The position numbers were made by a program, and so were the translations under genes. The notes under the pieces were generated by a model. The model ran no database searches, had not been told where the DNA came from, and saw only the letters and a list, made by a program, of their open reading frames with translations. DNA of 63,646 nt, counting the filler, from Chrysochromulina tobinii (taxonomy: Eukaryota), in assembly GCA_001275005.1 (NCBI GenBank). It is 4 parts of 4 records of this genome, joined end to end, with 100 filler letters (N's around TTAATTAATTAA, not from the genome) between each part and the next. Parts side by side here need not be neighbours in the genome. Positions count along the whole stretch, not along the records: positions 11,719 to 30,302 come from JWZX01000762.1; 3 more parts are not named here. The stretch is one strand, 5' to 3'. Below are positions 1 to 46,421 of this stretch, in pieces; position 1 is the stretch's first letter, and every line of letters starts with the position of its first letter.

Positions 1-780
1 AGAAGAGGCAATCAGAGGCAATCAGAGTCGTTCGGAGGCAATCAAAGGCAATCATCATAGGCAATCATCATAGGCAATCAGAGGCTAGAAGAAGCACTCA
101 GCGGCAATCAGCGGCAATCAAAGGCAATCAGATGCAATCGGAGGCAATCAGAGGCAATCGGAGGCAATCGGAGGCCATCAGAGGCAATCAGAGGCCATCA
201 GAGGCCATCAGAGGCCATCAGAGGCCAGAAGAAGCACTCAGCGGCAATCAACGGCAATCAAAGGCAATCAGAGGCAATCGGATGCAATCAGAGGCAATCA
301 GAGGCCATCAGAGGCAATCAGAGGCAATCAGAGGCCAGAAGAAGCACTCAGCAGCAATCAGAGGCCAGAAGAAGCACTCAGCGGTAATCAGCGGCAATCA
401 GTGGCAATCAGAGGCAATCAGAGGTAATCAGAGGCAATCATATGCCATCAGAGGCAATCAGAGGCCAGAAGTGGCAATCAGAGGTAATCAGAGGCAATCA
501 GAGGCAATCAGAGGTAATCAGAGGCCAGAAGAAGAAATCAGAGGCAATCAGGGCCGGAAGTAGCACTCAGCGGTAATCAGAGGCAATCAGAAGCAATCAG
601 AAGCAATCATCGGATGCAATCGGATTCCATCAGAGGCAATCAGAAACCCTCATCTAGGCAATCAGATGCAATCACAGGCAACCATATCCACTCAGAGGCA
701 ATCAAAGGCAATCAGAGGCAATCATCGCAGGCAATCATCGCAGGCAATCATCGCAGGCAATCATCCGAGGCAGCCATCAG
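1..780. repeat. Degenerate 10-bp tandem satellite (GAGGCAATCA / TGATTGCCTC)n
   Basis: Dozens of GAGGCAATCA variants (GAGGCCATCA, GCGGCAATCA), changing to a 13-mer GCAGGCAATCATC near 720-765. The same unit occurs inside introns elsewhere in the window. Confidence 0.95.
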
Positions 781-807
781 CCCACGAGTGCGGACTTTGG
801 TCAACGC

Positions 808-1599
808 CTAGTTGGTCGCAGGCCTGTGGTCGGGCAGCGCCTTGGGGGGGTCGAAGACCATCACACGCCCTCCAGAGAAGCCCGGCGGACTCTCGTGCAC
901 CGAGTTCGTGCGCGTGTAGATGGCGCCGTCGTGGGCGTATAGATGGCGCCGTCGGCGGTCTTGATGCGCGCGTCGGGGCTCACCTGTGGGGAAGAGGGCG
1001 GGAGCGCCGTAGTGGGCACTTGCATGCAAGGCTGGGGGCGCATCGGCGCTCACCGAGAACTTGTTGTGCGGGCAGATCGCCGCCAAAGGACGCCACATTC
1101 CCGTTTGGTGGTAAGTAGTCTTTGATCGCGTTCAGGTAGTTGCCGTCCATGTAGTCCGTCACACGTTGCTGTACAGGTTGCCACAGTACCCGCACGGCTC
1201 ATCGCCCAGGTATGGACCGCGCCGTGGTTGGCGCTTGCATGCAGGTTGCCATGGTACCCGCACGGCTCAACGCCCAGGTATGGACCGCGCCGTGGTGGGC
1301 GCTTGCATGCAGGTTGCCATTGTACCCGCACGGCTCATCGCCCAGGTATGGACCGCGCCGTGGTGGGCGCTTGCATGCAGGTTGCCATGGTACCCGCACG
1401 GCTCGTCGTTCGAGTAGCGCAGCATCACGAGGTTCACAGCCGCGCCCACGCCCTCGCGCCGCCGCGTCACTTCGCCGCCGCCCTGCGCCACGAACGCGAC
1501 AAAGCCCGCGCGCGATAAGGTGCGATCCACCAGCGCAAAGGGGCCGCCGCCAACGGACAGCGCGCCCGCAGGCAGCACAGCTGGCAGGCTGGAAGCCAA
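808..1599 (-). pseudogene. Probable disrupted gene of unknown function
   Basis: Protein-like segments (LRYSNDEPCGY / TDYMDGNYLNAIKDYLPPNG / WRPLAAICPHNKFSVSPDARIK / DGAIYTRTNSVHESPPGFSGGRVMVFDPP) lie in different frames. GT-AG intron at 1053-984; 61-bp tandem array at about 1174-1405. Confidence 0.35.
1174..1405. repeat. About 61-bp tandem repeat (3-4 copies) containing TTGCATGCAG
   Basis: Unit CAGGTTGCCATGGTACCCGCACGGCTCATCGCCCAGGTATGGACCGCGCCGTGGTGGGCGCTTGCATG repeated with few substitutions. Confidence 0.9.
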
Positions 1600-1604
1600 A
1601 CGCC

Positions 1605-1715
1605 CAGCCGTTGGTGGTGGTGTTCACAGCCGTTGGTGGTGGTGTTCACAGCCGTTGATGGTGGTGTTCACAGCCGTTGGTGGTGGTGTTCACTGCTGTT
1701 GGTGGTGGTCTTCAC
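1605..1715. repeat. About 22-bp minisatellite CAGCCGTTGGTGGTGGTGTTCA x4-5
   Basis: Direct tandem copies visible in the sequence. Confidence 0.9.
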
Positions 1716-2669
1716 GGTACGCCTCCGACTCTACCGCCCACGGGGGTTGCAAGCACCGCCCAGCCCGCGCCGCCGCCTCCGCCCTCGGGGGGAGCAAAGA
1801 CCGCCAAGCCCACGCCTACGCCTCCGAACACGTCCTCCACGGGGAGCACGTACGCGGGGCAGGGCAGCGACAGCACGTCCGGCAGGCCGCCAGAGGACGT
1901 GAGGTAGAAGGAGTCACCAACGGCACGCCCGTCACGGGGTCGACTGCCCCCGATCGGACGAGGCATGCGGCCAGCGACTCCCCTGCTGTCTCGGTGAGCG
2001 GCAGGCACACGCGCACGCACACGTCCTCCGTCGTTGCATCGACGAGCAGCGCGCCTCGTGAAAGGTGGGGTTGGGTGGGTAGTCGCCGCAGTCCCCCACG
2101 CGGACGCAGGGGCCGCTCGCAAGTGGCACGCAAGGGCTCATGTCCGTGCGCACGACGAGCCGCGTGTCGTGTGACAGCGACGCGAGCGCGAGGAGGAGAG
2201 CAGAGAGAGCGAGGTGTGTGGCTCGTGTTCTCGCGTCTGAGGCAGAATGCGAGCGTGTGAACAGCATTGCGTGAACAAGAGACCAGAATTCACACGCACA
2301 CAGCTCTCGCATCGAGCAGCCACGCACGGCATCCCAGCAGTACGAATGGCGCTCCTCCACCTGCCGTCGATCCGCGTCGTACTGGGCGAGCGCCCGACGT
2401 AGAGGCTCGACATCCGCAAGAGGCAAGGCGGAGGTGGCCCACGAGCAGCGAAGGCGCTGAGACGGACGCGGCTGGATCTTGCGTGCGCGCTGTCTCGGGC
2501 GCGCTGTCTCGAGCGCGCTGTCTCGGGTTGGAAGCTTGGAACTTGTTAACAAGCTCGGAGTCGGCCGAGCGCGCCCGAGACAGCGCCGATCGCGCCCCCT
2601 ACCTCACTGTATCGGAAGCCCCATCGACGTGCCGGTGCCTCTCGAGCCACGCCAAGGTGAGTTCGAACG

Positions 2670-3737
2670 TTACCTTACTGCACCGGTAGCCCCATCGACG
2701 TGCCGGTACCTCTCGAGCCACGCCAAGGTGAGCTCGAACGTGGGCATGATGGCCCCAGCCACCGGGCCCGCGCGCAGCATCGTCGGCCAAAACCCTCGGT
2801 AGAAGCGCCGCACGCCGCCCTCGGCATGCAATCGGCGAGCGCACTCGAGCGCGCCCACGACGACGCGCCGTCCGCTCTCGGGCATGGCTGTCGCGGGCGC
2901 CGTCGTGAGCGCCGTCGTAAGCGCCGTCGTGGGCGCCGTCGTGGGCGCCGTCGCGGGCGCCGTCGCGGGCGCCATCGCGGGCATCGATGCGGGCACAGCC
3001 TGCAATGTGCATCGTACGAGGTCCACAGGGTACATGACGCCCCAGCAGATCAGGTTGGCCCCGGCACCCGCACACGAGCGCACCCACAGTGGCACTAGGG
3101 AGCCATCCGCTTCTCTCGAGCCCGCGACGGCGCCGGAGCCGCCGGCAGACCCAAAGGCGTGCTTCAGCCACGTGTACGACTGACGAGCGTCGTCTTGAGC
3201 GCCGTTCCTGGCGCCGGCGTGGGCACTTGCATGCAAGGCGTGCTTGAGCCACGTGTACGACGCCATGTACAGCCCTCGCGAGGCCTCAAAAGCAACCGTC
3301 GGTCCGAACCCCGCGTACAAGGTGCCACTCGCAGCGGCGGCTCGCACGGTGGCCAGCGTGCCCGTGCCGGCCGTCTGCTGCAGCACCTTGATGCGGCTGA
3401 GCGGGCACGTGAACGCCGAGATGCTCAGGCCGGCGATCGATCCGGCGAGACCGTCGCGAAGGAGCGGCCCGGCGTCTGGCCGCGCTCGCGAGATCCATCG
3501 GCGCGCATTCTCGAAAATCCCGAGGTTGAGCGCTTGCACAGCGCCCGACGTCGCAATCGGCATCGCAGCGCCTCTGTAGAGCACGCGGAGCGACAGCGCC
3601 TCGGGCCTTGCATTCGTCTGCGCAAAGACCTTGAGCGTGTCGAGCGGATGGCCAATGAGCTGGCCGATGGCGCCGGCGATCGATCCGGCGGCGAAGGAGA
3701 GAGGAGTGAAGGAGGAGGCGGCGTCATTCACGGCCAT
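2670..3737 (-). CDS. Mitochondrial carrier (SLC25) family protein, carnitine/acylcarnitine/ornithine carrier-like
   Basis: Three Px[DE]xx[KR]-type signatures (HPLDTLKV, CPLSRIKV, YPVDLVRC) and FYRGFWPTMLRAGP. Contains an 81-nt duplication-associated insertion at about 3180-3261. Start is either ATG 3737 or further upstream (ORF open to 3836). Confidence 0.85.
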   Translation of the reverse strand: MAVNDAASSFTPLSFAAGSIAGAIGQLIGHPLDTLKVFAQTNARPEALSLRVLYRGAAMPIATSGAVQALNLGIFENARRWISRARPDAGPLLRDGLAGSIAGLSISAFTCPLSRIKVLQQTAGTGTLATVRAAAASGTLYAGFGPTVAFEASRGLYMASYTWLKHALHASAHAGARNGAQDDARQSYTWLKHAFGSAGGSGAVAGSREADGSLVPLWVRSCAGAGANLICWGVMYPVDLVRCTLQAVPASMPAMAPATAPATAPTTAPTTALTTALTTAPATAMPESGRRVVVGALECARRLHAEGGVRRFYRGFWPTMLRAGPVAGAIMPTFELTLAWLERYRHVDGATGAVR

Positions 3738-6894: not shown

Positions 6895-8574
6895 ATGGGA
6901 GTTCCTCGATCGCCGAGACGTTCGCCGGCTTGGATCCAGGAGGACCATGACTCAAGGACGAGTGCGCGAGCACCTCGATCGCCGCCTCCGGGAGGCATCC
7001 GCCTTGCCATCCATGAGTGGCAGACAGGCGAGGCTGAAGATGGAGCTGAGCGTGGGAAGACGTGTGAACTGCCTACGCTCGCATCACCGTCCACCGGTCG
7101 AATTTTCGGCGATTCGCCGCGCTCGTACACCTCCAGTATGCGGTTCTCGCCAGAGTCTCCACGGCAGTTCTCGCCACCCATGAGTGCGGCGCTCAGGAGC
7201 TTCCGTGGCGAGGTGCCACAGCCGCGCGAGTGTGCCTCTCCGCGGCTGATGATCAAACCCAGTCCGCGCATGGTATCGCCGCGCGAGCGGCAGCGCATGA
7301 CGCACACCGTGGGCGCACTTCAGGCCGTCCAGTGGCCGCCGGGTGACGACGTGCGCTGGGGCCCTTCGCTCTACCCGCCGTTCCAGATCCCGTCGATCGA
7401 CAAGCCGGAGGTGAACGTGTGGGCAGAGTCACCGCACCATGAGCCGGCAGCGGCGCGCGAGGCGGCAGCGGCGGCGACGGCGATGCCATTTGCGACCAAG
7501 CTCGAGCTCGCCCTCAATCTCGGGGCGGAGGAGCAGTTTCGTCAGTTTGTGCAGGCGCAGGCGGAAGCCCCGCCGTCGCGCGGTTTCGTCAGTTTCGTCA
7601 GTTCGTGCGGCGCGGCGGAGCAGCCGGAGCAGCCGGTGGCGGCGCGATACCGGTGCCAAGATTGGGATGTGGACCTCGCCATCGGGCCAGCGAGGAGGGA
7701 GCCGTCAGCGCTCCGCTGGGAGCCCTGCGAGGCGTTGCGCTCGAGGGCGTCGCATCGAATGGAGGCGCGAGATCGCGAGATCGAGCGAGGTCGCGAGCTC
7801 AGGGAGGACGTTCGTCGTGTGGCCGAGGCGGACGCATGGGCACGCGGATCCCCCCAGCAGCCCCTCGCCTCGCCGTCCGCCGCTCGGCGCGACGCGTTGC
7901 CGCTCGTCGTGGATCCCTTGGCCTCGCCGATCTACAGCTGGCCTCCGACGCCCTCCGGCCTCAACGGCCTGCCGTCCGATCGACGGCTGGTGAGCGCGCG
8001 CGGGCAGAACGAGCACGAAGCTCGGGCGGCGCTGCTGCGTGCCGTGGCCGACGAGACCGCACGCGAGCTCCAACGGCTGCACGAGCGCTCAGTGCACGCC
8101 CAAGAGGAGCTTCGTCATTTGGAGGAGCGAGAGCAGGCGTGGTGGGCGTGGTACCACCAAATGAAAGGGCCGGCGCTCCAGCGGCGTGCGCAACAAGAAG
8201 CTCGCGAGGAGGCCGCGGCGGAGGCGCACGCTCGCCGGCTGCAGCAAGAGAAGCTAGCCGCCAAGGAGGCGGCGCGTCGTGAGGCCGCCGAGGCGCGGGA
8301 GAGGGCAGTCGCCGCCGCCGCCGCAGCGGATCGAGCACGCAAAGAGGCGGAGGCGAGGGACAAGGCCGAGAAGGAGAAGCAGCGACTGGCCGCAGAGCTC
8401 GCTGAAAAGGAACGGGTGCGGCGGCAGGCCGAGGAGCAGGCTGACAAGGAGAGGCTCGTGCGAGAGGCAAAGGAGAGGCAAAGGGCGCGCCAAGAGGCGG
8501 CGGCGAACCGACCGCCAGAGCGCGAGTCTGAGTTGATCGTCAAGGTCGACGGCAAGGAGGTGATCCGATGGTGA
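6895..8574 (+). CDS. Hypothetical protein with SP-rich N-terminus and E/R/A/K coiled-coil C-terminus
   Basis: Long ORF (about 560 aa) with a charged heptad-rich tail; start uncertain. Confidence 0.6.
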   Translation: MGVPRSPRRSPAWIQEDHDSRTSARAPRSPPPGGIRLAIHEWQTGEAEDGAERGKTCELPTLASPSTGRIFGDSPRSYTSSMRFSPESPRQFSPPMSAALRSFRGEVPQPRECASPRLMIKPSPRMVSPRERQRMTHTVGALQAVQWPPGDDVRWGPSLYPPFQIPSIDKPEVNVWAESPHHEPAAAREAAAAATAMPFATKLELALNLGAEEQFRQFVQAQAEAPPSRGFVSFVSSCGAAEQPEQPVAARYRCQDWDVDLAIGPARREPSALRWEPCEALRSRASHRMEARDREIERGRELREDVRRVAEADAWARGSPQQPLASPSAARRDALPLVVDPLASPIYSWPPTPSGLNGLPSDRRLVSARGQNEHEARAALLRAVADETARELQRLHERSVHAQEELRHLEEREQAWWAWYHQMKGPALQRRAQQEAREEAAAEAHARRLQQEKLAAKEAARREAAEARERAVAAAAAADRARKEAEARDKAEKEKQRLAAELAEKERVRRQAEEQADKERLVREAKERQRARQEAAANRPPERESELIVKVDGKEVIRW

Positions 8575-12341: not shown

Positions 12342-13221
12342 ATGCTTCGCCCCAATACCTTCAAGCGAGCGCTGCTGACGCGCGAGCCGCGCGGCTTGCT
12401 AGGCGTCTGGGCCTCCGCGTGCTGTCCGCAAGTGACCGAGCTGCTCTCCACCGTGCGGATGCTTTCGTGGCTCACCATCGACATGGAGCACGCGCCAAAT
12501 ACACTGCCCTCGGTGCTCACACAGCTGCAGGCCTCACAGGCGATGGGCACCGTCGAAGCGGTCGTGCGCGTGCCGGTTGCCACCGATCCGGTCATCGTCA
12601 AGCGCGTGCTCGATCTTGGCGCACGTAGGGCGAGACGGCACTCGAACCCACAGCCTCTCAGGCTGCCGCGCGCTGCAGCGGATGAGTGCAATGGAACGCT
12701 TTCGACTCATGTATCGCGGCAGGCACCATAATGTTCCCAGCGGTCGAGACGGCTGACCAGGCGGCCGCGGCCGTCGCATCGACGCGCTACCCACCCCGCG
12801 GCGTGCGCGGCGTGATGACCACAGCCCGCATGTCCGGGTACGCCATCAGCCCGGACGCACTCCAGTCGTACTACGCGTTCGCCGAGCGCGAAACGTGCGC
12901 GATCGTGCAGATTGAGAGCGCGGCAGCGGTCGAACGCATCCCCGAGATCGCAGCCATTGACGGCGTCGACGGGATCTTCGTCGGCCCCTCATACTTAGCC
13001 GCCTCGATGACCGCCTCGGACAGCCTTCACACCCCGAGGTGGCCGCGGCGGTTCGGCGCGCCTTTGAGCTCTGCGAAGCGTCGGGTGTCGCATATGGGAG
13101 CATCTCGGGCGACGCGGCCACGTGCCGTGGCTTTGTGGACGCGGGAGCGAGCTTCGTGGCCGTTGGGACCGACCTGATGCTGCTACGTGCGGCGCTCGAA
13201 GGCCGCTTGGACGAATTGTGA
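12342..13221 (+). pseudogene. HpcH/HpaI (GarL/RhmA-like) class II aldolase, frameshifted
   Basis: Motifs WLTIDMEHAP, VKRVLDLGA, RYPPRGVRG, VQIES, GVDGIFVGP. Intron 12625-12722. A one-base frameshift near 13010 separates LAASM from LGQPSHPEV...FVAVGTD. Confidence 0.75.
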
Positions 13222-13651
13222 ATTCACACCATACTGACGAATCCCATGGAAGGCCGCTTGGACGAATTGAGAGGAACAAATTCAGCGAAATCATCGCATT
13301 TCTCGAAATCATTTCCGTTCCAAAGGATAGCTTTCTAGTCTCCTGACTTTTACCCACGTGGATACCCACTTGGAGTATTGGAGTGAGTTACTCCGTCAGG
13401 GGGGGTACAAGTGAGATGTGGTAGCTCATCGTCACTCGACTGAGAACGTGATAACGCCTCTGCGGCGAAAAACTCGTACGCGGCAGCGGCCCAGATACGC
13501 GACCGGGGCGTGAGCGGGACGAAACTGCTGTGTACGCTCTCTCGCACGGTCCGGTCCGGCAGGGGGGCACGCGCATCCCGCGCGCTCCGGTCTCGTGCGT
13601 CGCATCGCCGGTGCGTTGCATACCGAGCGTCGAGTAGCCAGGCAGCGACGA

Positions 13652-21152: not shown

Positions 21153-22401
21153 GATGTGTTCTTTTCTCTGTGGGCCGGCGGCGGCGCAACAAGGGCCCGG
21201 CTTCATGAGCGAGGGCGGCCTCAAGCCAGGCCTCAAAGGCCGCCTCACGTTCGCGATCGCCAACGCGCCGGCGGACAATGAGCTCAAGCAGGACCTGGCC
21301 AAGAAGCTGCAGCCCGTGCTCTCGAGCAGCAGCAGGCACAAGATGCTGCTCTTGAGCTTGCAGTCGACCCTCAAGGGGAAGGGCGTCGTCGAGTACGAGG
21401 GCCAGCCGGACCTGCTCGTGCACGACCTGCTCTTTCTCCGCCAACGGCTCAACGTGGGCGCCGCCACGATGGGCATCACCGAGTCGCGCATCTTCTGGAC
21501 GGTGAACACGCCGCACTTTGAGCCCGAGCGGCTGCCGCCGAACGTGGGCAGGGCGCTCGGCACGATGCTCAAAGAGGGAGGCGCAAAGCCGGGCACGCCC
21601 ATGCTGCACGGGCGCGAGGACTCGTCCTGCTGCGAGCGGCTCATGTGTCCGCTCTTCCGCGCGTTCGAGCTCAAGCTCCTCGAGGACGACGAGGACGGCG
21701 GCGGCCTGATCATTGAGAGGCCGATGGTATGCGAGCCGTGCCAGTGCTGGCCTGTCTGCTTCTCGCAGAGCCAGCGCGTGCTCGTCAAGGACCTGGACGG
21801 CCGCCTCCTCGGGCAGGCCATCGAGCCCTCACCCCTCCTCTGCGGCTACCACACCTCCGCACGCAACGCAGCCGCGCTAGGGGGCTCCGCTGCCAACGGA
21901 TCCGCAAGGGCGCTCGACACGGCGCTCGGCTGGGCGCCCCAATTCTGTTGCACGCGCGTGTACGTGGCGCAGGACGCCAAGGGCGAGTCGCTCTACATCC
22001 TCAAGGCGAACATGTGCCGCGACAACTGCTGCGCGCCGGGCTGCTGCAACGAGAGCTTCGATGTCGAGATGTATGACTGGGCTACCGGAGAGTACGTCGG
22101 TATGTCGGCCTTCCTATGGCCACTGATGACCTGCCTTTGCATGCAAGTGCTCATCGCAGCGCGTCCACCTGCCAGGTATGTCCGCCTTCCTATGGCCGGG
22201 CTGCAACTTTGGAGGCGACACCGACCGCTCGCAGCTCGTGGTGCGCATGCCGCCCAAGGCCACGCCCACGCACCGCGCCGCGCTCCTCGCGGCGATGCTC
22301 CTTATCGAGTACACGGCCGTTGAGAACAGCCGGCAGCTCGACTGCTCCAACGGCACAGGGGCGTTGGGAGCGCCGCCCCGGGCAGAGGAGATGCATCGCT
22401 G
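21153..22401 (+). CDS. Phospholipid scramblase-like protein; intron 22100-22175
   Basis: EDSSCCER..C...RAF, IERP..C..C, Cys-rich. Splicing gives a scramblase-type tail VRMPPKATPTHRAALLAAMLLIEY. Start uncertain (21013-21205). Confidence 0.72.
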
Positions 22402-22995: not shown

Positions 22996-23936
22996 GAGCC
23001 ATCGAGACCGTGTCGCGCGAGCTCCTGCGTCGTGGACCTAGATCTGGAAGCACGCGTGCCACATCATCGTCTACATCCGGGCCGCTTACACCCACACGTG
23101 ATGCCTTCGTCGCTGTGGCCATGTTCGGCGCTGTGGCCATCGCTGCTGCAGCCACAAGGCGCATGCGGCATGGCGCCGCGCACCACAGCCGATCCGGAGC
23201 GACGACGTTGCCGCTGTCGATGTCCTGAGGTGCCGCATGAGCCATGGTCTTGAGCAAAGAGATTCGGTCTTGCAACTGCTCCATCTCTTCGAGTGCCGCC
23301 TGCAGCTCCTTCGAGTGTTCCATTTGCCGAGCCAGTTCCGACCGTGCGGCCCTTGGCACTTCCGACGAGATGGTGAAGCTATTCGACGGCGAACAGACTT
23401 CACTCCCATCGCTGTCGCTGAGCTGAATTGGCGTCGTGCTCCACGCCACCGTGCTGTCGCTTTTGCCATTCTGCCCGACCCTTGACTCTTGCCCGAATCT
23501 GAGATGACTCTCGGGACGCGGTGAAGTACGTGTCCACGCTGAACGAGGGCTTCGCGGTGAACGAGGGCTTGCGCCGCCGAGAGAGCTGCTCGAGACGCTC
23601 GAGCTGCTCGCTGCCCGCTTCAACTCATACTGTTCCTTTCGTAGTAGATCAGTAAAGATCATCGCTGCGTGTGCCGTGCCTCGCTCGATGATCCTCGGAG
23701 CACGGCTCATGGTGGAGACGACGAACGAGTCCACATGAGGCGGCCCTCCCGCTTGCATTCCAAAGCGGCGAGCGGCGAGGGGTCGCAGACGCGGTGCGGG
23801 TACGGGGCCAGCAGCTGGCCGGCAGCATGAGTTTCGGGAAGATGAATTTCTTCCGGGATTCTCGGATATAGATTCGTCTGAGTGCGTCGCACGCGCACTC
23901 ATTGAGTGCCGGGATTCTCGGATAGATTCGTTTCGG
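22996..23936 (-). repeat. Inverted partial duplicate of 16426-17329 (truncated gene copy)
   Basis: Near-identical translation (MQAGGPP...TMSRAPRIIERGTAHAAMIF...LGPRRRSSR.TVSMA) plus homologous upstream sequence. Confidence 0.92.
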
Positions 23937-25103: not shown

Positions 25104-28100
25104 TCACTTACCCAACGAGCTGAGAGCGGGAGCGCCAGTGCCCTTGCCATTGCCCTCGCTCTTGCCCTCGCTCTTGCCCTCGCCCTCGCCCTCGCCTTCG
25201 CCGCGCCGGCGCATGATCCGAATCCGCAGCGAGACGCGATCGAAGTCAGCATCGACCTCGAGTGTATCTCCGTCGCGGTACTCGCCCGCCACCAGCCCAC
25301 GCGCGAGGGGCGTCTCAAGCTCCTTCTGGACCACGCGCTTGAGAGGGCGCGCGCCGTACTCGGGCGAGTAGCCCAGGTCCGCAAGCACGCCGAGCGCTGC
25401 GTCGGTCACTTGCAACGTCACCTCCCTTGCAGCGAGCCGCTTCTGCACGCCGCCCAGGGTGAGACGCGCGATCGTCTGCAGTTGCCTTTTTTGGAGCGGC
25501 TGGAAGATGATGAGCTCTCCGAGCCGGTTGAGGAACTCAGGTCGGTATGTCTCTCGCAGCTGGTCGAGCACGCGCAGCCGCACCTCATCCAGCCTCGAGG
25601 GGTCGCCGTTGGCCTCGAGGATCGTACTCGCACCCACATTGGAAGTAAGGATGATGATCGTGTTCCGAAAGTTGACGGTGCGCCCTTGCCCATCGGTCAC
25701 GCGCCCGTCGTCGAGGATCTGGAGCAGGACATTGAACACCTCGGGATGCGCCTTGTCCATCTCATCGAAGAGTACGACCGCGTACGGCCGGCGGCGCACT
25801 GCCTCGGTGAGCTGCCCCCCCTGCTCGTAGCCCACGTAGCCGGGCGGTGCGCCGACCAGCCGAGAGACGCTCTCCTTGGCCATGTACTCGGACATGTCCA
25901 GCCGCACCTGATGAGCGGGCTCATCACGGAGGTCATCAACGCTCATCACGGAGGCCATCAACGCTCATCACGGAGGCCATTGGGCGCAGGCGCTCATCAC
26001 GGAGGTCATCAACGCTCATCACGGAGGTCATCAACGCTCATCACGGAGGCCATTGGGCGCAGGCGCTCATCACGGAGGTCATCAACGCTCGTCGTAGGCC
26101 ATCGGAGGCGCTATCGGCAGTCATCAGAGGTCATCGCTCGCCCTCGGCGCACCATCGCGTCATCGGAATCAAAGAGTTTATTCGCGAGTGCCTTCGCTAG
26201 CTCCGTCTTCCCCACACCCGTTGGCCCGAGGAACAGAAAGGAGGCGAGGGGCTGGCTCGGGTCTGCGAGTCCAGCACGCGAGCGAAGGATCGCATCCGAG
26301 ACAGCATCGACCGCCTCCGACTGGCCCGCCACGCGCGCCCCGAGCGCCTCGGGCAGGTCGAGCAGCTTTTGGGCCTCGGACGCGAGGAGTTTCGTCACTG
26401 GCACCCCCGTCCATTGAGAAACGACCTCGGCCACCTCCTCTTCGCCGACTGTCGTACGCAGCAGCGGCGGCAAATCTGCGGAGTCGATCACCACAACAGC
26501 ACCGGCGGCCGCCGCAGCGGCGGCAGCGGCGGCGGCGGCAGCGGCGGCGGCCGCGCGCCCTAGCGCCTCCTCCTCCGCTAGCCGAAGCCGACGCTGTAGC
26601 TCGGGCAGCTTGGCGTACTTGAGCTCGGCCGCGCGGGAGAGCTCGTACGATTGCTCCGCCTGCTCGATCTCGACGTTGGTCGCCTCGATCTGGGACTTGA
26701 GCTCGCGCACCTGCTCAGGCGGGCTCATCAAGGAGGCCATCAGACGCAATCATACAGGCCATCATCAGGGCTCATCAAGGAGGCAATCAGACGCAATCAT
26801 ACAGGCCATCATCGGGGCCATCAATCAGTTGTACTCCTCGCTGCAATCAGTACATCAATCAGTACATCAATCGGTACTTCAATCAATCATTTGTACTCCT
26901 CGCTCACCGCCTCGAGCCTCGACTTCTCCTCCTCCCACCGCTTCGTCAGCTCCGCCTGCTCCGCCTGCAGCGTGTCCGCCTCGTCCGTGAGTGCGCGCAG
27001 CCGGCCGGCGGCGCGTGCGTCGGTCAATGCGTCTTGCTTGAGCGAGATCATCTCCATCTGCACCTGCAGCAGCCGCCGGCTGACCTCATCCAGCCGTTGG
27101 GGGCGCGACGTGGCATCGATGCGCAGCTTGGCCGCCGCTTCGTCGATGAGGTCGATGGCCTTATCGGGCAAGAAGCGATCGGCGATGTAACGATCCGAGA
27201 GCACGGCCGCTGCCACGAGGGCGGCATCCGAGATGGAGACGCCGTGGTGAAGCTCATAGCGCTCCTTGAGGCCGCGGAGGATCGCCGTGGTCGCTTCCAC
27301 AGAGGGGGGCTCCACGTAGACCTGTGGGGAGGGGGGGAGGGCGTCGTGGTGAGCACTTGCATGCAAGGTAGCTCATCAGTGGCAATCAGAGGGGGGCTCC
27401 ACGTAGACCTGCTGGAAGCGACGCTCGAGCGCAGCGTCCTTTTCGATGTACTCGCGGTACTCATCGAGGGTCGTCGCTCCGATGCATGCGAGATCTCCGC
27501 GAGCGAGCGCCGGCTTGAGCAGATTCGACGCGTCCATCGCGCCGTTGCCGCCGCCCGCACCAACGACGGTGTGGATCTCGTCAATGAAGAGTACCACCTC
27601 GCCGTCGGCCATGGTGACTTCATCAATGACCGCCTTGAGACGCTCTTCGAATTCGCCCCTATACTTGGCACCCGCGAGGAGGGAGCCCATGTCGAGAGCG
27701 AGTAACCGCCGGTCGCGGAGCGTCTCGGGCACGTCGCCACTCGCGATGCGCTGCGCAAGGCCCTCGGCGATCGCAGTCTTGCCTACGCCAGGCTCCCCGA
27801 TTAGGATCGGATTGCTCTTCGTGCGGCGCGAGAGTACCGTCATCGCGCGCCGTACCTCGTCGTCACGCCCGATGACAGGATCGAGCTTCCCTTCGCGCGC
27901 GAGCTTCGTCAGGTCGCGAGAGTACTTGGCGAGCGCCTCGTACGATCCCTCGGGCGTGCGCGACGTAATGCGCCGGTTGCCACGTACCTGTGCGGAGGAG
28001 AGGGCGCCGTGCTGAGCACTTGCATGCAAGCCGCGCCCAGGGGTCGGTGGCCATGTACCTGGTCGATGGCGGCACGTAACGTCATCGTCTCGAGAGCGGC

Positions 28101-28736: not shown

Positions 28737-28997
28737 GCGCTCGGAGCGAGGAATGTCTGGAACGCGAAAGTGCCAAGAAAAGGGCGCTCGTGACTTTCAA
28801 TTTCAAAGCGGTCCCCAGCGCTCCGACACCACGCCTCGAGGACGGCTCCGCACCCCTCGGTCAACACAAGTACAGAGTACTCGCTCGCTCGAGCTACTCA
28901 ATTTCGCAATAAGCTTGTGGTCGGTCTCGATTCGGCAAAGGAGGAAAGGCTGGAATTGTCTGCATTGCGGCGCCTTCGAAACGCGTTAGATGGCCGG

Positions 28998-29939: not shown

Positions 29940-30184
29940 TACAATCGTAGACGAAGTCTGTCTTTGTCAATGATCAACCCTTATTCAGTCAAGTCAAGTC
30001 AACCCTTATTCAGCCTTTATTTGTTTTGGATCTAAGTTTGAAGTTCGTTCCGCCAGTCAGTCAGTCGGTCAGTTTCGTCACGGTCCCCCCGCGCTCGCCA
30101 CACCTCGGCCTCGGCTCCAAATAGCTTGGAAAGGGGTGGGGGGGCTGCGGGGGGGTTTGTTATCGAGTTTGGGGGGGTTTGTTA

Positions 30185-43950: not shown

Positions 43951-46421
43951 TCATCCCGAGCCGCGCGACTTGGCTTTTCGCAGCTTCTCACGCGGCGTCT
44001 GCGGCGGCGGCGCGACCCCCGCCACCTCGGCGCCTACGAGCTCGCCGTCGATACCGCCTTGCAGGATCTTCATCTGCGACTCGAAGTGGAAGGTGAGGTC
44101 GCGCAGCTGCTCCTCCATGTCCTTGGTCTTGGCGAGCAGCTCGGCCTCGCGCCGCTCCGAGTCGGCAAGCCGCTTGCGGAGCGCCTCCTGGTTGCGCATC
44201 AGCTGCTCGTTGAGAGACTTGTTGAAATCGCGCTCCTTGATAGCCGTTTCCGCCGACTGGACGCGCTTGGCGCTCGCACGCGACTCGCGCTTGACGAGCT
44301 CAAGCTCGCGGCCGAGCACCTCCTCACGCTGGCCAATATCTTCCTCGAGCTCGAAGAGATGGCGCTTGTGTATCCGCTCGAGCTCGACGAGCCTTTCATC
44401 GTAGTGGCGGCGCTGCACCTGATGAGGGAGGCACTCAGCGGCGCATGAGAGACATGATGAGGGAGGCACTCAGCGGCGCTTGAGAGACATCTTATCGTAG
44501 TGGCGGCGCTGCACCTCGAGCTGGCCCGTGAGAAGGAGCGAGTACTCGTGCACGACGGCCTCGTACTGCTCCTCCTGCCCGCGCCGCTTGAGCTCGCGCG
44601 CCGCGTCCGAGGCCGTCGACGCCCCGTCCATTGCCGACGAGCCGCCGCCGTGCGGGTCAGGGAGCTCGACGAGCTTGCCGTCCACCTTATTTTGGATCAG
44701 CCGGTGCACGTAATTGTCTCCTGCGCATTAGCGTGCATCCCACGCAATCAGACGCAATCAGACGCAATCAGACGCAATCAGACGCAATCAGACGCAATCA
44801 GACGCAATCACTCACCGGAGTAGTCCCACACCCGCTGGGTCGAGAGCTCGAGCGCGAAGTTGTGCCCGGTCGCCTCGTTGTGGTGCAGGCCCGAGCCGCA
44901 GCCCGTGTACCGCCCGCAGCCTACGTGGCCGCATACGAGGCAGATCCACAAGGCCTCCAGGGTGCCGCACACCTCGCAGCTAGTGCGCCCGTGGGTGTCA
45001 TCGGACACGTGGCGGCACACCGGGCACGACGAGTCGGCCCAGCGACGCAGGCACTCGCAGTGGAAGCTATGATCGCACACGATCGTCACGATACCGGTCA
45101 CGGATGGATCGAGACGTTCGAGGCACACGGGGCACGAGGGCAGCTCTACTGGATGACTCAGCAGAGCGCCAAGCGGCAGTGGCGGCAGCGTGGCGCGCCG
45201 GCCGCGCTGCGCTCGCTCGACGGCGGCGCGCGCCTCGCTCGAGGGCGGCGGCAGCGGCGGCCTCGGGTAGCGTGCCGCCGCATCCACCGCTCGCATCGGG
45301 TCAACCGCACTGCTCGTCCACAACTGTAGCCGTACCCTCGGGCGCTGTTGTGGGCGCTGAGAGTCCGAGGCTGAGGGCGCTGTTGTGGGCGCGATGGTGC
45401 TCCTCGGTGCACCAGCCGCCGGGTCGCTCGCCTCCCCGCCCGCTACGACGCCCGCTGGGTCACGTGGCTCTTGGCCGGCCTCCGGGTCGCACCCTTCACA
45501 CTTGAGGCGCGCTGCATTCACGTGCAGGCGTACTCGGACCTCCGGCGCGCGCGAGCCAGCTGATGCCGGTACAGTCTGAAGAGGCGGCGCGAAGACTGCC
45601 GCGGCGACGTGCACCACGAGCGCGACCTCCGGCTCGAGCGAGTTGAAGCGCTTCGCGTGGTAATCGGCGCGGAAGCGCTCGGCGATCGAGGGTGATCCGA
45701 ACTGCAGCAGCACCATGTGCCGGTGCGGCATCGACGCGTCGCGCAGCACTCGCATGTGGCGCACCATGCGGGCGTAACCGCCGAAGAAGTGGATCAGGTC
45801 GGCGCTGGAGAGCCACGACGGCACGGCAGGGATGCACACCACGTTAGAGCGCAGCGGCGGCGGCCGCAGCCCGACGACGCCCGCCGGCTCCTCATAACGA
45901 TAGAAGCCGATCGAGCCCACTTTCAACTCCCCGTTCGGGTGGCCGGCGACGAAGCCCACCTGCGTGAGCTCGAGCTTGGCCACGCCCGTATCTGAGCTCG
46001 AGGCCCCGCTAGCTATTGCCGCGGAGCTATCGCCCTCGCCGTCGTGCGCTTCGCCGTCCTCTTCGTTCTCATCCTCGTCGTCGTCGTCGTCGTCGTCGCC
46101 CTCATCATCCAGCATCGTCGCATCATCGCCGACCAGCCAGGGCGAGGCGCCGCCGCTCCACCGCGGGTGAGGCGATGGCCGCGTGAGTTGCGCACCAGTT
46201 GCTGTCGACGAACTGCCATGCACGCCTGCCAGTTCCGCGTCGTCGTCGGCTGTGGATGAGGCGCCCGGCAGTATCGTTGGCGTCGGCGAATTGCGCAAGT
46301 CGAGTTGGGACTCCTCGACTTGCACGCCAACATCGACGTGCAGAATCGGCTCGAATGTGGGTTCGGGCAGTGTTCGCAGGTACGCCTCGTTACTTGGGAG
46401 CACGGCGCGGATGGCGTACAT
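43951..46421 (-). CDS. BRAP: BRAP2/IMP/ETP1-like RING + ZnF-UBP E3 ligase; introns 44815-44721 and 44514-44419
   Basis: BRAP2 domain (FNSLEPE), [18 protein letters not shown]2, [15 protein letters not shown]n[21 protein letters not shown], coiled coil ending LEEQLRDL-like ([13 protein letters not shown]). Confidence 0.92.

What the first reader, a model, noticed from the sequence alone, without database searches (positions are those of the whole stretch)
27300..27408. Intron family whose 5' end is a copy of the downstream exon start: a candidate intron-generating system
Seen: introns in unrelated genes begin with a duplicate of the exon sequence after them. ClpB 27408-27322 has a perfect 22-nt copy (GTCTACGTGGAGCCCCCCTCTG); BRAP 44514-44419 a perfect 21-nt copy (GTGCAGCGCCGCCACTACGAT); scramblase 22100-22175 22 nt with 1 mismatch; 1053-984 16 nt with 2 mismatches; ClpB 28058-27988 14 nt with 2 mismatches. 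Shorter remnants occur at 26907 and 26152. The duplicate supplies the GT donor and a shared inserted module supplies the CAG acceptor, so splicing restores the protein exactly. Established: Introner elements in Micromonas and Aureococcus create introns, the characterised ones being DNA transposons with short fixed TSDs. Inference: long variable duplications, no TIRs and a perfect-to-decayed gradient suggest a different, ongoing mechanism such as staggered-break repair or target-primed templated addition at exonic GT sites.
Basis: partly seen in the sequence, partly recalled or inferred. Interest (0 to 1): 0.88.

Follow-up and report, generated by a model that had tools for sequence, protein, structure and literature searches.

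The report
Self-copying introns that duplicate their target
In a freshwater alga, many short introns begin with an 8-50-base copy of the exon sequence that follows them and end in a shared splice-signal module, are spliced out cleanly and differ between strains, so new introns are likely still being made here, likely by copying the end of an existing intron into a similar-looking exon site.

Summary
Confirmed and extended. The 87-nt ClpB intron (27408-27322, minus strand) is a 22-nt copy of the next exon, an 18-nt filler and a ~47-nt module (palindrome, branch-point motif, pyrimidine tract, CAG). RNA contigs splice it in 3 of 3 runs, and 1053-984 in 4 of 4. The host is Chrysochromulina tobinii or a conspecific. 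The module recurs at 11 further DNA sites and in 42 protein-level reads, with duplications of 8 to ~50 nt, no terminal inverted repeats, and sense orientation in 14 of 14 DNA sites tested. The ClpB site appears in three allele states: empty, this insertion, and a different insertion with a 33-nt duplication. Copies that share a filler tend to share exon-start sequence (post hoc p about 0.001), which suggests base-pairing-guided copying from a parent intron. Corrections: BRAP carries a different filler, the 26152 remnant is within chance, and some copies lack splice sites. The enzyme is unidentified; RT, HUH-transposase and reverse-splicing rivals remain. The largest introner survey lists zero families for this species.

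The parts
27387..27408 (-). 5' part of ClpB intron 2: perfect 22-nt copy of the next exon start; supplies the GT donor
27369..27386 (-). 18-nt filler, shared with 22100-22175, L013/L014 and P0155 (inherited 5' extension of the module, related to the decamer repeats of other introns)
27340..27368 (-). Module core: 12-nt palindrome CTTGCATGCAAG (27367-27356) and branch-point-like TGCTCAC (27355-27349; role inferred from the consensus branch site)
27322..27339 (-). Pyrimidine tract and CAG acceptor carried by the insert
27300..27321 (-). Exonic original of the duplicated target
27988..28058 (-). ClpB intron 1, 71 nt, module with 14-nt decayed copy; spliced; two modules in tandem in another strain (P0134)
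22100..22175 (+). Scramblase intron, 76 nt, module with 22-nt copy; in register with an intron of an unrelated gene (P0155); splicing not seen in listed rows
984..1053 (-). 70-nt module intron, 16-nt decayed copy, exon end TCG; spliced in 4 of 4 RNA runs
1174..1408 (-). Three tandem 68-nt units with the module core but no CAG tail and no usable donor, ~31-nt duplication; RNA pieces run into it
3154..3261 (-). 81-nt in-frame module insertion (27 codons) with 27-nt duplication in a mitochondrial carrier gene; not GT-AG
44419..44514 (-). BRAP intron, 96 nt, perfect 21-nt copy but a different filler family; absent in a 70%-identical relative (P0197/P0219)
26711..26907 (-). ClpB intron 3, 197 nt, spliced; 8 of 9 nt match to next exon (marginal remnant); decamer-repeat interior
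25908..26152 (-). ClpB intron 4, 245 nt, spliced; 5-nt match, within chance

Best explanation
These are spliced introns built from an 8-50-base copy of the next exon's start plus a shared branch-point/acceptor module, and they likely arise when a nicked gene end pairs with the intron-exon junction of an existing intron, copies that intron's 3' part and rejoins a little downstream. Steps: (1, inferred) a staggered nick or displaced nascent end forms at an exonic (CA)G|GT-like site of a transcribed gene; (2, inferred, statistical support) the antisense 3' end anneals to a parent junction, AG plus the parent's own exon start, on DNA or nascent pre-mRNA; (3, inferred) a host repair polymerase or RT copies back through acceptor, pyrimidine tract, branch point and palindrome and stops there or up to ~35 nt beyond, carrying parent filler; (4, inferred from junctions) it rejoins 8-50 nt downstream through 1-6 nt of microhomology, duplicating the target; (5, shown) the spliceosome uses the duplicated GT and the carried AG and restores the mRNA; (6, inferred) the direct repeats then allow tandem expansion, replacement and exact loss. 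Each new intron would carry the homology arm for the next round, so no dedicated transposase would be needed.
For: Architecture in 9 of 11 distinct metagenome DNA sites (8-39 nt; L005 gapped, L006 none) and 31 of 46 scorable protein-level copies above the 99th percentile of the null, up to ~50 nt. Duplication ends overlap the module start by 2-6 nt in L003, L012, L027, 3235, 1379. Fillers are shared between unrelated genes, and 3 of the 5 pairs sharing a filler at >=10 bits also have exon starts in the top 3% of 861 pairs (permutation p 0.0008); two of these pairs (22100/P0155, P0178/P0180) are in register from the GT. 14 of 14 DNA sites are in sense orientation, 2 of them exactly at existing acceptors. 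Several unrelated fillers show the same long duplication (BRAP, L006, L002), so the process is not tied to one element. Neighbouring copies share variants (L015 pair; 1053/1379/3235). Three allele states at 27408. No TIRs.
Against: No enzyme or intermediate is identified. The homology test is post hoc, rests on 5 pairs, hand-set duplication masks and back-translated proteins, and weakens to p 0.024 at the 8-bit threshold; 2 of the 5 pairs show no target similarity. Most copies have long perfect duplications with only 2-6 nt at the module junction, which TPRT or HUH transposition explain equally. Plain DNA annealing does not by itself enforce sense orientation. One module dominating hundreds of sites suggests a recognition signal, as in a non-autonomous element. 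The empty alleles are known only from translated gene calls.
Confidence: 0.45

Rival explanations
1. A non-LTR or Penelope-type reverse transcriptase acting in trans primes at a nick and copies excised intron RNA from its 3' CAG end, truncating variably (SINE-like target-primed reverse transcription).
For: Precise 3' end at the intron terminus, variable 5' end with microhomology and variable duplication length are the general TPRT footprint (established knowledge); also precise in some non-GT copies (L003, L014). Gozashti 2025 lists ~5% of classified introners as non-LTR.
Against: No poly(A) or 3' tandem tail, no Rfam match; 1379 and 3235 keep the core but not the usual 3' tail; duplications reach ~50 nt; orientation is strictly sense; target similarity among siblings is not expected of an endonuclease-chosen site.
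Confidence: 0.22
2. The module is a minimal non-autonomous HUH (Replitron/Helitron-like) copy-and-paste element acting on single-stranded DNA.
For: Read antisense, the copies have the topology reported for Replitron-1: one precise end at the target, a palindrome near the other end, a fuzzy end from the parent's flank and variable duplications; the paper reports one Replitron protein in C. tobinii.
Against: No terminal direct repeats; module only ~45 nt; other fillers without the palindrome show the same duplication; folding is unremarkable (z -1.5 to +0.4); the paper saw this footprint only in Chlamydomonas.
Confidence: 0.14
3. The intron-lariat spliceosome partly reverse-splices the intron 3' end into the displaced sense DNA strand of an R-loop; strand-displacement synthesis and flap ligation give the duplication.
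For: Would give exact AG junctions, sense orientation and hits at existing acceptors; reverse splicing into R-loop DNA is proposed in PMC10996645.
Against: Never shown for spliceosomes (same paper); does not predict long duplications without an added step, nor copies lacking the acceptor tail (1379).
Confidence: 0.08
4. Ordinary staggered-break repair captures random fragments (Daphnia-type) and selection keeps those that splice; the shared module only reflects abundant donor sequence.
For: Direct repeats and parallel gains are described for Daphnia; the window holds duplications with unrelated or no filler (13198, 23853, 7534, 906-954).
Against: Neutral captures should be mostly non-coding and of either orientation (coding ~40% of the genome), but 0 of 14 DNA sites are antisense or intergenic; Daphnia repeats are 4-17 nt.
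Confidence: 0.11

Closest known systems
[quoted passage not shown]
   Same: Donor from the duplicated target, acceptor from the insert, mRNA unchanged, many unrelated genes
   Different: Those have fixed 4- or 8-nt TSDs and often TIRs; here 8-50 nt, variable, no TIRs, fuzzy 5' end with inherited filler
Emiliania huxleyi introner fam24 (PMC12130899 Dataset, row 1026)
   Same: Haptophyte, ~70 nt, co-opts 5' and carries 3', noted with 10-bp terminal direct repeats, mechanism unknown
   Different: Only 5 copies listed; sequence not seen by me, so homology is untested. C. tobinii is listed with 0 families
Chrysochromulina sp. TARA MAG introners (PMC9860276 Fig. 2C)
   Same: Same genus, no TIRs
   Different: 4-bp TSD, carry the 5' site and co-opt the 3' site: the reverse arrangement
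Daphnia pulex new introns (PMC4202315)
   Same: Polymorphic, parallel gains at one site, direct repeats, secondary insertions
   Different: Repeats 4-17 nt and largely internal; here a high-copy shared module and long flanking copies
Replitron-1 of Chlamydomonas (bioRxiv 2022.12.15.520654)
   Same: Precise end, fuzzy parent-derived end, palindrome, variable duplication
   Different: 0.9-3.6 kb with terminal direct repeats and a Rep protein; not reported to make introns
Intron gain by tandem genomic duplication (PMC4974935, listing only)
   Same: Duplicated exon sequence supplies a splice site
   Different: There the intron is wholly duplicated exon; here foreign intron-derived sequence is inserted

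Membership tests
Introner (operational, Gozashti) | At least 4 similar introns in non-paralogous genes | tested here: met
Introner (operational, Gozashti) | Similarity reaches both intron boundaries | tested here: not met
   5' 8-50 nt are locus-specific; the filter is stated and would explain the 0 families listed (inference)
Introner (operational, Gozashti) | Spliced out without changing the mRNA | tested here: met
   (3 module introns; 22100 and BRAP not shown)
Introner (operational, Gozashti) | Recent: presence/absence between close relatives | tested here: met
   translated gene calls on contigs up to 52,976 bp read through the site; DNA not seen directly
TIR DNA-transposon introner (MITE-like) | Terminal inverted repeats | tested here: not met
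   1-6 of 12 terminal matches in 14 sites
TIR DNA-transposon introner (MITE-like) | Short fixed TSD | tested here: not met
   8-39 nt in DNA, to ~50 nt in protein reads
TIR DNA-transposon introner (MITE-like) | Cognate transposase | not testable with these tools
   no genome; none in 50 window ORFs
SINE / non-LTR retroposon | Variable TSD, precise 3' end, truncated 5' end with microhomology | tested here: met
   exceptions 1379 and 3235 lack the usual tail
SINE / non-LTR retroposon | Poly(A) or tandem 3' tail | tested here: not met
   copies end in CAG
SINE / non-LTR retroposon | tRNA/7SL/5S-derived head | tested here: not met
   0 Rfam matches at gathering score in the window
SINE / non-LTR retroposon | Partner LINE sharing the 3' end | not testable with these tools
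   no genome
Replitron / HUH element | Fuzzy end from the parent's flank plus variable duplication | tested here: inconclusive
   shared fillers fit, parents not traced
Replitron / HUH element | Short direct repeats at both termini | tested here: not met
   module ends differ
Replitron / HUH element | Rep HUH protein recognising the termini | not testable with these tools
   a C. tobinii protein is reported; no link tested
Daphnia-type break-repair introns | Direct repeats and parallel gains | tested here: met
Daphnia-type break-repair introns | Inserted DNA without a shared family source | tested here: not met
   shared module; the Daphnia source section was not read, this feature is recalled
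Tandem-duplication intron gain | Intron consists only of duplicated exon | tested here: not met

The most novel reading that the evidence does not exclude
A transposase-free, self-propagating intron system: every intron carries at its 5' end and just after its 3' end a copy of its own target, and this arm guides host repair synthesis to paste the intron's branch-point/acceptor end into other sense-strand exon sites that resemble it, automatically creating a GT donor. Introns would beget introns by base pairing, at hundreds to thousands of sites, now segregating in wild populations and invisible to end-to-end introner searches.
Probability: 0.3. Interest if true: 0.93.

Novelty: new variant of a known kind. 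Interest (0 to 1): 0.8.

Why it matters
How new spliceosomal introns arise is a long-standing question, and the current answer for bursts is transposons. Here a culturable alga appears to be gaining, replacing and losing introns now, with each event leaving a long footprint that records target, parent filler and age. That makes parent-child tracing, and a test between repair-templating, reverse transcription, HUH transposition and reverse splicing, possible from existing genomes and lake metagenomes. It also suggests that introner surveys requiring end-to-end similarity miss a whole class: C. tobinii is listed with zero families.

Tried and rejected
No whole genome is held and the metagenome records could not be opened further, so no genome-wide census or enzyme search was possible. 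The viral scan gave 1 chance match in a phage terminase gene (L034); the prokaryote genome scan gave 0. Pfam on 50 window ORFs: no RT, transposase or Rep. Rfam: 0. Folding of 7 introns or modules not better than shuffles. Assembly collapse as the cause of empty alleles: considered; judged unlikely because type-A alleles assemble intact (P0131) and empty alleles carry strain-specific residues, but not excluded without reads. Partly spliced RNA as the cause: real for short contigs (4 of 28 proteins have exon 1 joined yet intron 3 read), so only contigs longer than the gene were counted as genomic. An apparent second independent insertion in the P0152 gene (P0227) was rejected: the two are one nucleotide string with a 2-nt shift (42 of 42 nt compatible). 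My idea that the type-B filler came from ClpB intron 1 in cis was weakened when the same filler appeared in an unrelated gene (P0160). L002/L019/L024/L033 (upstream differs from L027) and P0156 look chimeric and were dropped, as were same-site duplicates. A protein search with the two-module peptide found only 2 hits. RNA gave no cover at 3154-3261.

Full report
Observation. The five cited introns are present as described. The ClpB intron 27408-27322 (minus strand) consists of a 22-nt perfect copy of the next exon start, an 18-nt filler, a 29-nt core holding the palindrome CTTGCATGCAAG and a branch-point-like TGCTCAC, and an 18-nt pyrimidine tract ending in CAG. Own intron-start/exon-start scores for 14 module sites and BRAP are 8-39, against a maximum of 8 in 342 cross pairs; 100 of 100 local shuffles gave no comparable site. 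The 26152 remnant is within chance and 26907 (8 of 9 nt) is marginal. BRAP has a perfect 21-nt copy but not the shared module.

Splicing. RNA contigs skip the 87-nt intron in 3 of 3 runs, with 25 letters fitting either side; the DNA run does not. The 245-, 197- and 71-nt ClpB introns are skipped in 3, 2 and 2 of 3 runs. Intron 1053-984 is skipped in 4 of 4 runs although its upstream exon ends TCG, so the acceptor comes from the insert. Removing the four introns gives one open ClpB frame of 941 codons that matches relatives without indels across the three junctions compared.

Host. The 90% cluster of the ClpB protein holds KOO35760.1 of Chrysochromulina tobinii; the window is 64.3% G+C against 63.4% for that genome (passages). 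The host is that species or a conspecific.

Family. One metagenome scan gave 33 loci, collapsing to 11 distinct module sites; 9 of 11 have an 8-39-nt copy, L005 a gapped one and L006 none. A profile of the translated module returned 43 proteins, 42 of them true module reads. Of 68 module occurrences (with P0151 and P0152), 16 had no recognisable end and 6 too little flank; 31 of the 46 scored exceed the 99th percentile of cross-pair scores, including tandem units and same-site duplicates. P0194 is compatible with about 50 nt with one mismatch. The window has 6 module sites in 63.6 kb; depth in the DNA run is 11,728 at 22136 against about 40 in single-copy contigs, which suggests hundreds of near-identical copies, though the tool warns depth is not copy number. 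There are no TIRs, no Rfam match and no unusual folding. All 14 DNA sites tested lie in sense to the best coding frame; 2 sit exactly at the acceptor of an older intron. Some copies are not clean introns: L003 and 3154-3261 are in-frame at non-GT sites, and 1174-1408 lacks the acceptor tail and seems retained in RNA.

Recency. Prokaryote-style gene calls read introns as protein and so report allele state. Of 28 fetched proteins of the ClpB clusters, 6 begin inside intron 1, end inside intron 3 and pass straight through site 27408 (P0001, P0122, P0123, P0127, P0128, P0134; longest contigs 5,245, 52,976, 2,206, 6,912, 1,915 and 3,934 bp); 1 shows the window's insertion; 4 show a different insertion with an 11-codon duplication, another filler and an 85-nt unit (P0151, P0220-P0222). 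Four others have exon 1 joined yet intron 3 read, so short contigs may be partly spliced RNA; the contigs longer than the gene cannot be. P0134 carries two modules in intron 1. An unnamed relative 84% identical over the query exon reads through sites 1-3 on 26- and 159-kb contigs (P0017, P0147), and a 70%-identical BRAP relative lacks 44514. This supports gain in the C. tobinii lineage with parallel gain or replacement, and possibly exact loss; it rests on translations, not on DNA I read.

Mechanism. The duplicated target often overlaps the module start by 2-6 nt, or is followed by up to ~35 nt of filler. Fillers recur in unrelated genes. Among 42 distinct sites (14 DNA, 28 protein sites chosen by hand from those with an evident copy; 861 pairs), 5 pairs share a filler at 10 bits or more, and 3 of them have exon starts in the top 3% of all pairs (permutation p 0.0008; 0.024 at 8 bits). 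The scramblase intron and P0155 have 7 codons from the donor to the same filler, 4 of the first 5 identical; P0178 and P0180 are likewise in register. I noticed these pairs before testing, so the p value is post hoc. The simplest reading is that a free 3' end pairs with a parent's junction, copies its 3' part and rejoins downstream. This accounts for the GT at targets, the exact AG junction, inherited fillers, re-insertion at acceptors and tandem arrays, and for other fillers (BRAP, L006, L002) showing the same footprint. It names no enzyme and does not fully explain strict sense orientation. I give it 0.45; RT on intron RNA 0.22, an HUH element 0.14, capture plus selection 0.11, reverse splicing 0.08.

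Comparison with print. Gozashti 2022 (PMC9860276; passages and supplement rows) describes 3-9-bp TSDs and a Chrysochromulina sp. family with a 4-bp TSD carrying the 5' site. Gozashti 2025 (PMC12130899; passages, section 12, supplement rows; files 13 and 14 not searched) lists C. tobinii with 0 families, requires similarity up to both boundaries, and notes one E. huxleyi family of 5 copies with 10-bp terminal direct repeats. Roy 2020 (bioRxiv 2020.10.14.339549, part 1 of 4) gives 4- and 8-nt TSD classes in the part read. Li 2014 (PMC4202315, abstract and section 19) and Farlow 2011 (PMC3020277, passages) cover break repair. Craig 2022 (bioRxiv 2022.12.15.520654, passages and first part of section 8) gives the Replitron footprint. 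PMC10996645 (passages) proposes reverse splicing into R-loops. PMC11782384 (abstract) reports 4-30-bp repeats near splice sites generally; PMC11282704 (part 1 of 5) is a review. Nine searches showed no paper describing this family; subscription journals and unread supplements could hold one. An earlier AI note on another piece of this genome (e1-2577349) saw the same footprint; it is not independent evidence.

Verdict. The feature is real, spliced, repeated and apparently polymorphic. It works like an introner that co-opts its donor, but fails the membership tests for TIR introners, SINEs and Replitrons as tested. New variant of a known kind, interest 0.8; a 0.3 chance that it is a transposase-free, homology-guided intron-copying system.

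Noticed in passing
window 800-2300 (minus): Transcribed gene with several frameshifts, a 23-nt tandem duplication (906-954) kept in RNA, the 3 x 68-nt module array and the spliced 70-nt intron; possibly a pseudogene showing insertions unfiltered by selection.
   Followed up: partly
window 3154-3261 and 2600-2741 (minus): Mitochondrial carrier gene with an in-frame 27-residue module insertion and a 71-nt tandem duplication over its stop codon.
   Followed up: partly
window 13198-13269, 23853-23924, 7534-7608: Further 16-21-nt direct repeats around short unrelated fillers without GT-AG ends; 13198 lies at the end of an HpcH aldolase ORF.
   Followed up: no
window ~28839-28885 and ~30050-30150: Another very high-depth repeat beside the ClpB 5' end, with inverted joints and RNA loose ends at 28839.
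   Followed up: no
window 4-724, 25919-26090, 26715-26885, 44742-44810: 10-nt-period repeats fill many introns and a 720-nt array at the window start; the module's filler resembles them.
   Followed up: no
L006 (minus) about 300-560: Two more duplication events with decamer fillers: a 34-nt copy at an existing acceptor, and a 21-nt copy that holds both splice sites with no carried AG.
   Followed up: partly
P0183: Translated intron reads as telomere-like hexamer repeats between two module copies (back-translation by eye).
   Followed up: no
P0153, P0159, P0161, P0172, P0179, P0193, L007, L013/L014: Tandem arrays of 2-8 module units, consistent with unequal exchange between the direct repeats.
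   Followed up: partly
P0135 (KOO35760.1): The public gene model repeats two residues at the 27408 junction, an annotation slip that the duplication would cause.
   Followed up: no
P0197/P0219: A 70%-identical BRAP relative lacks the 44514 intron but seems to have an intron 14 codons upstream that the window lacks.
   Followed up: no
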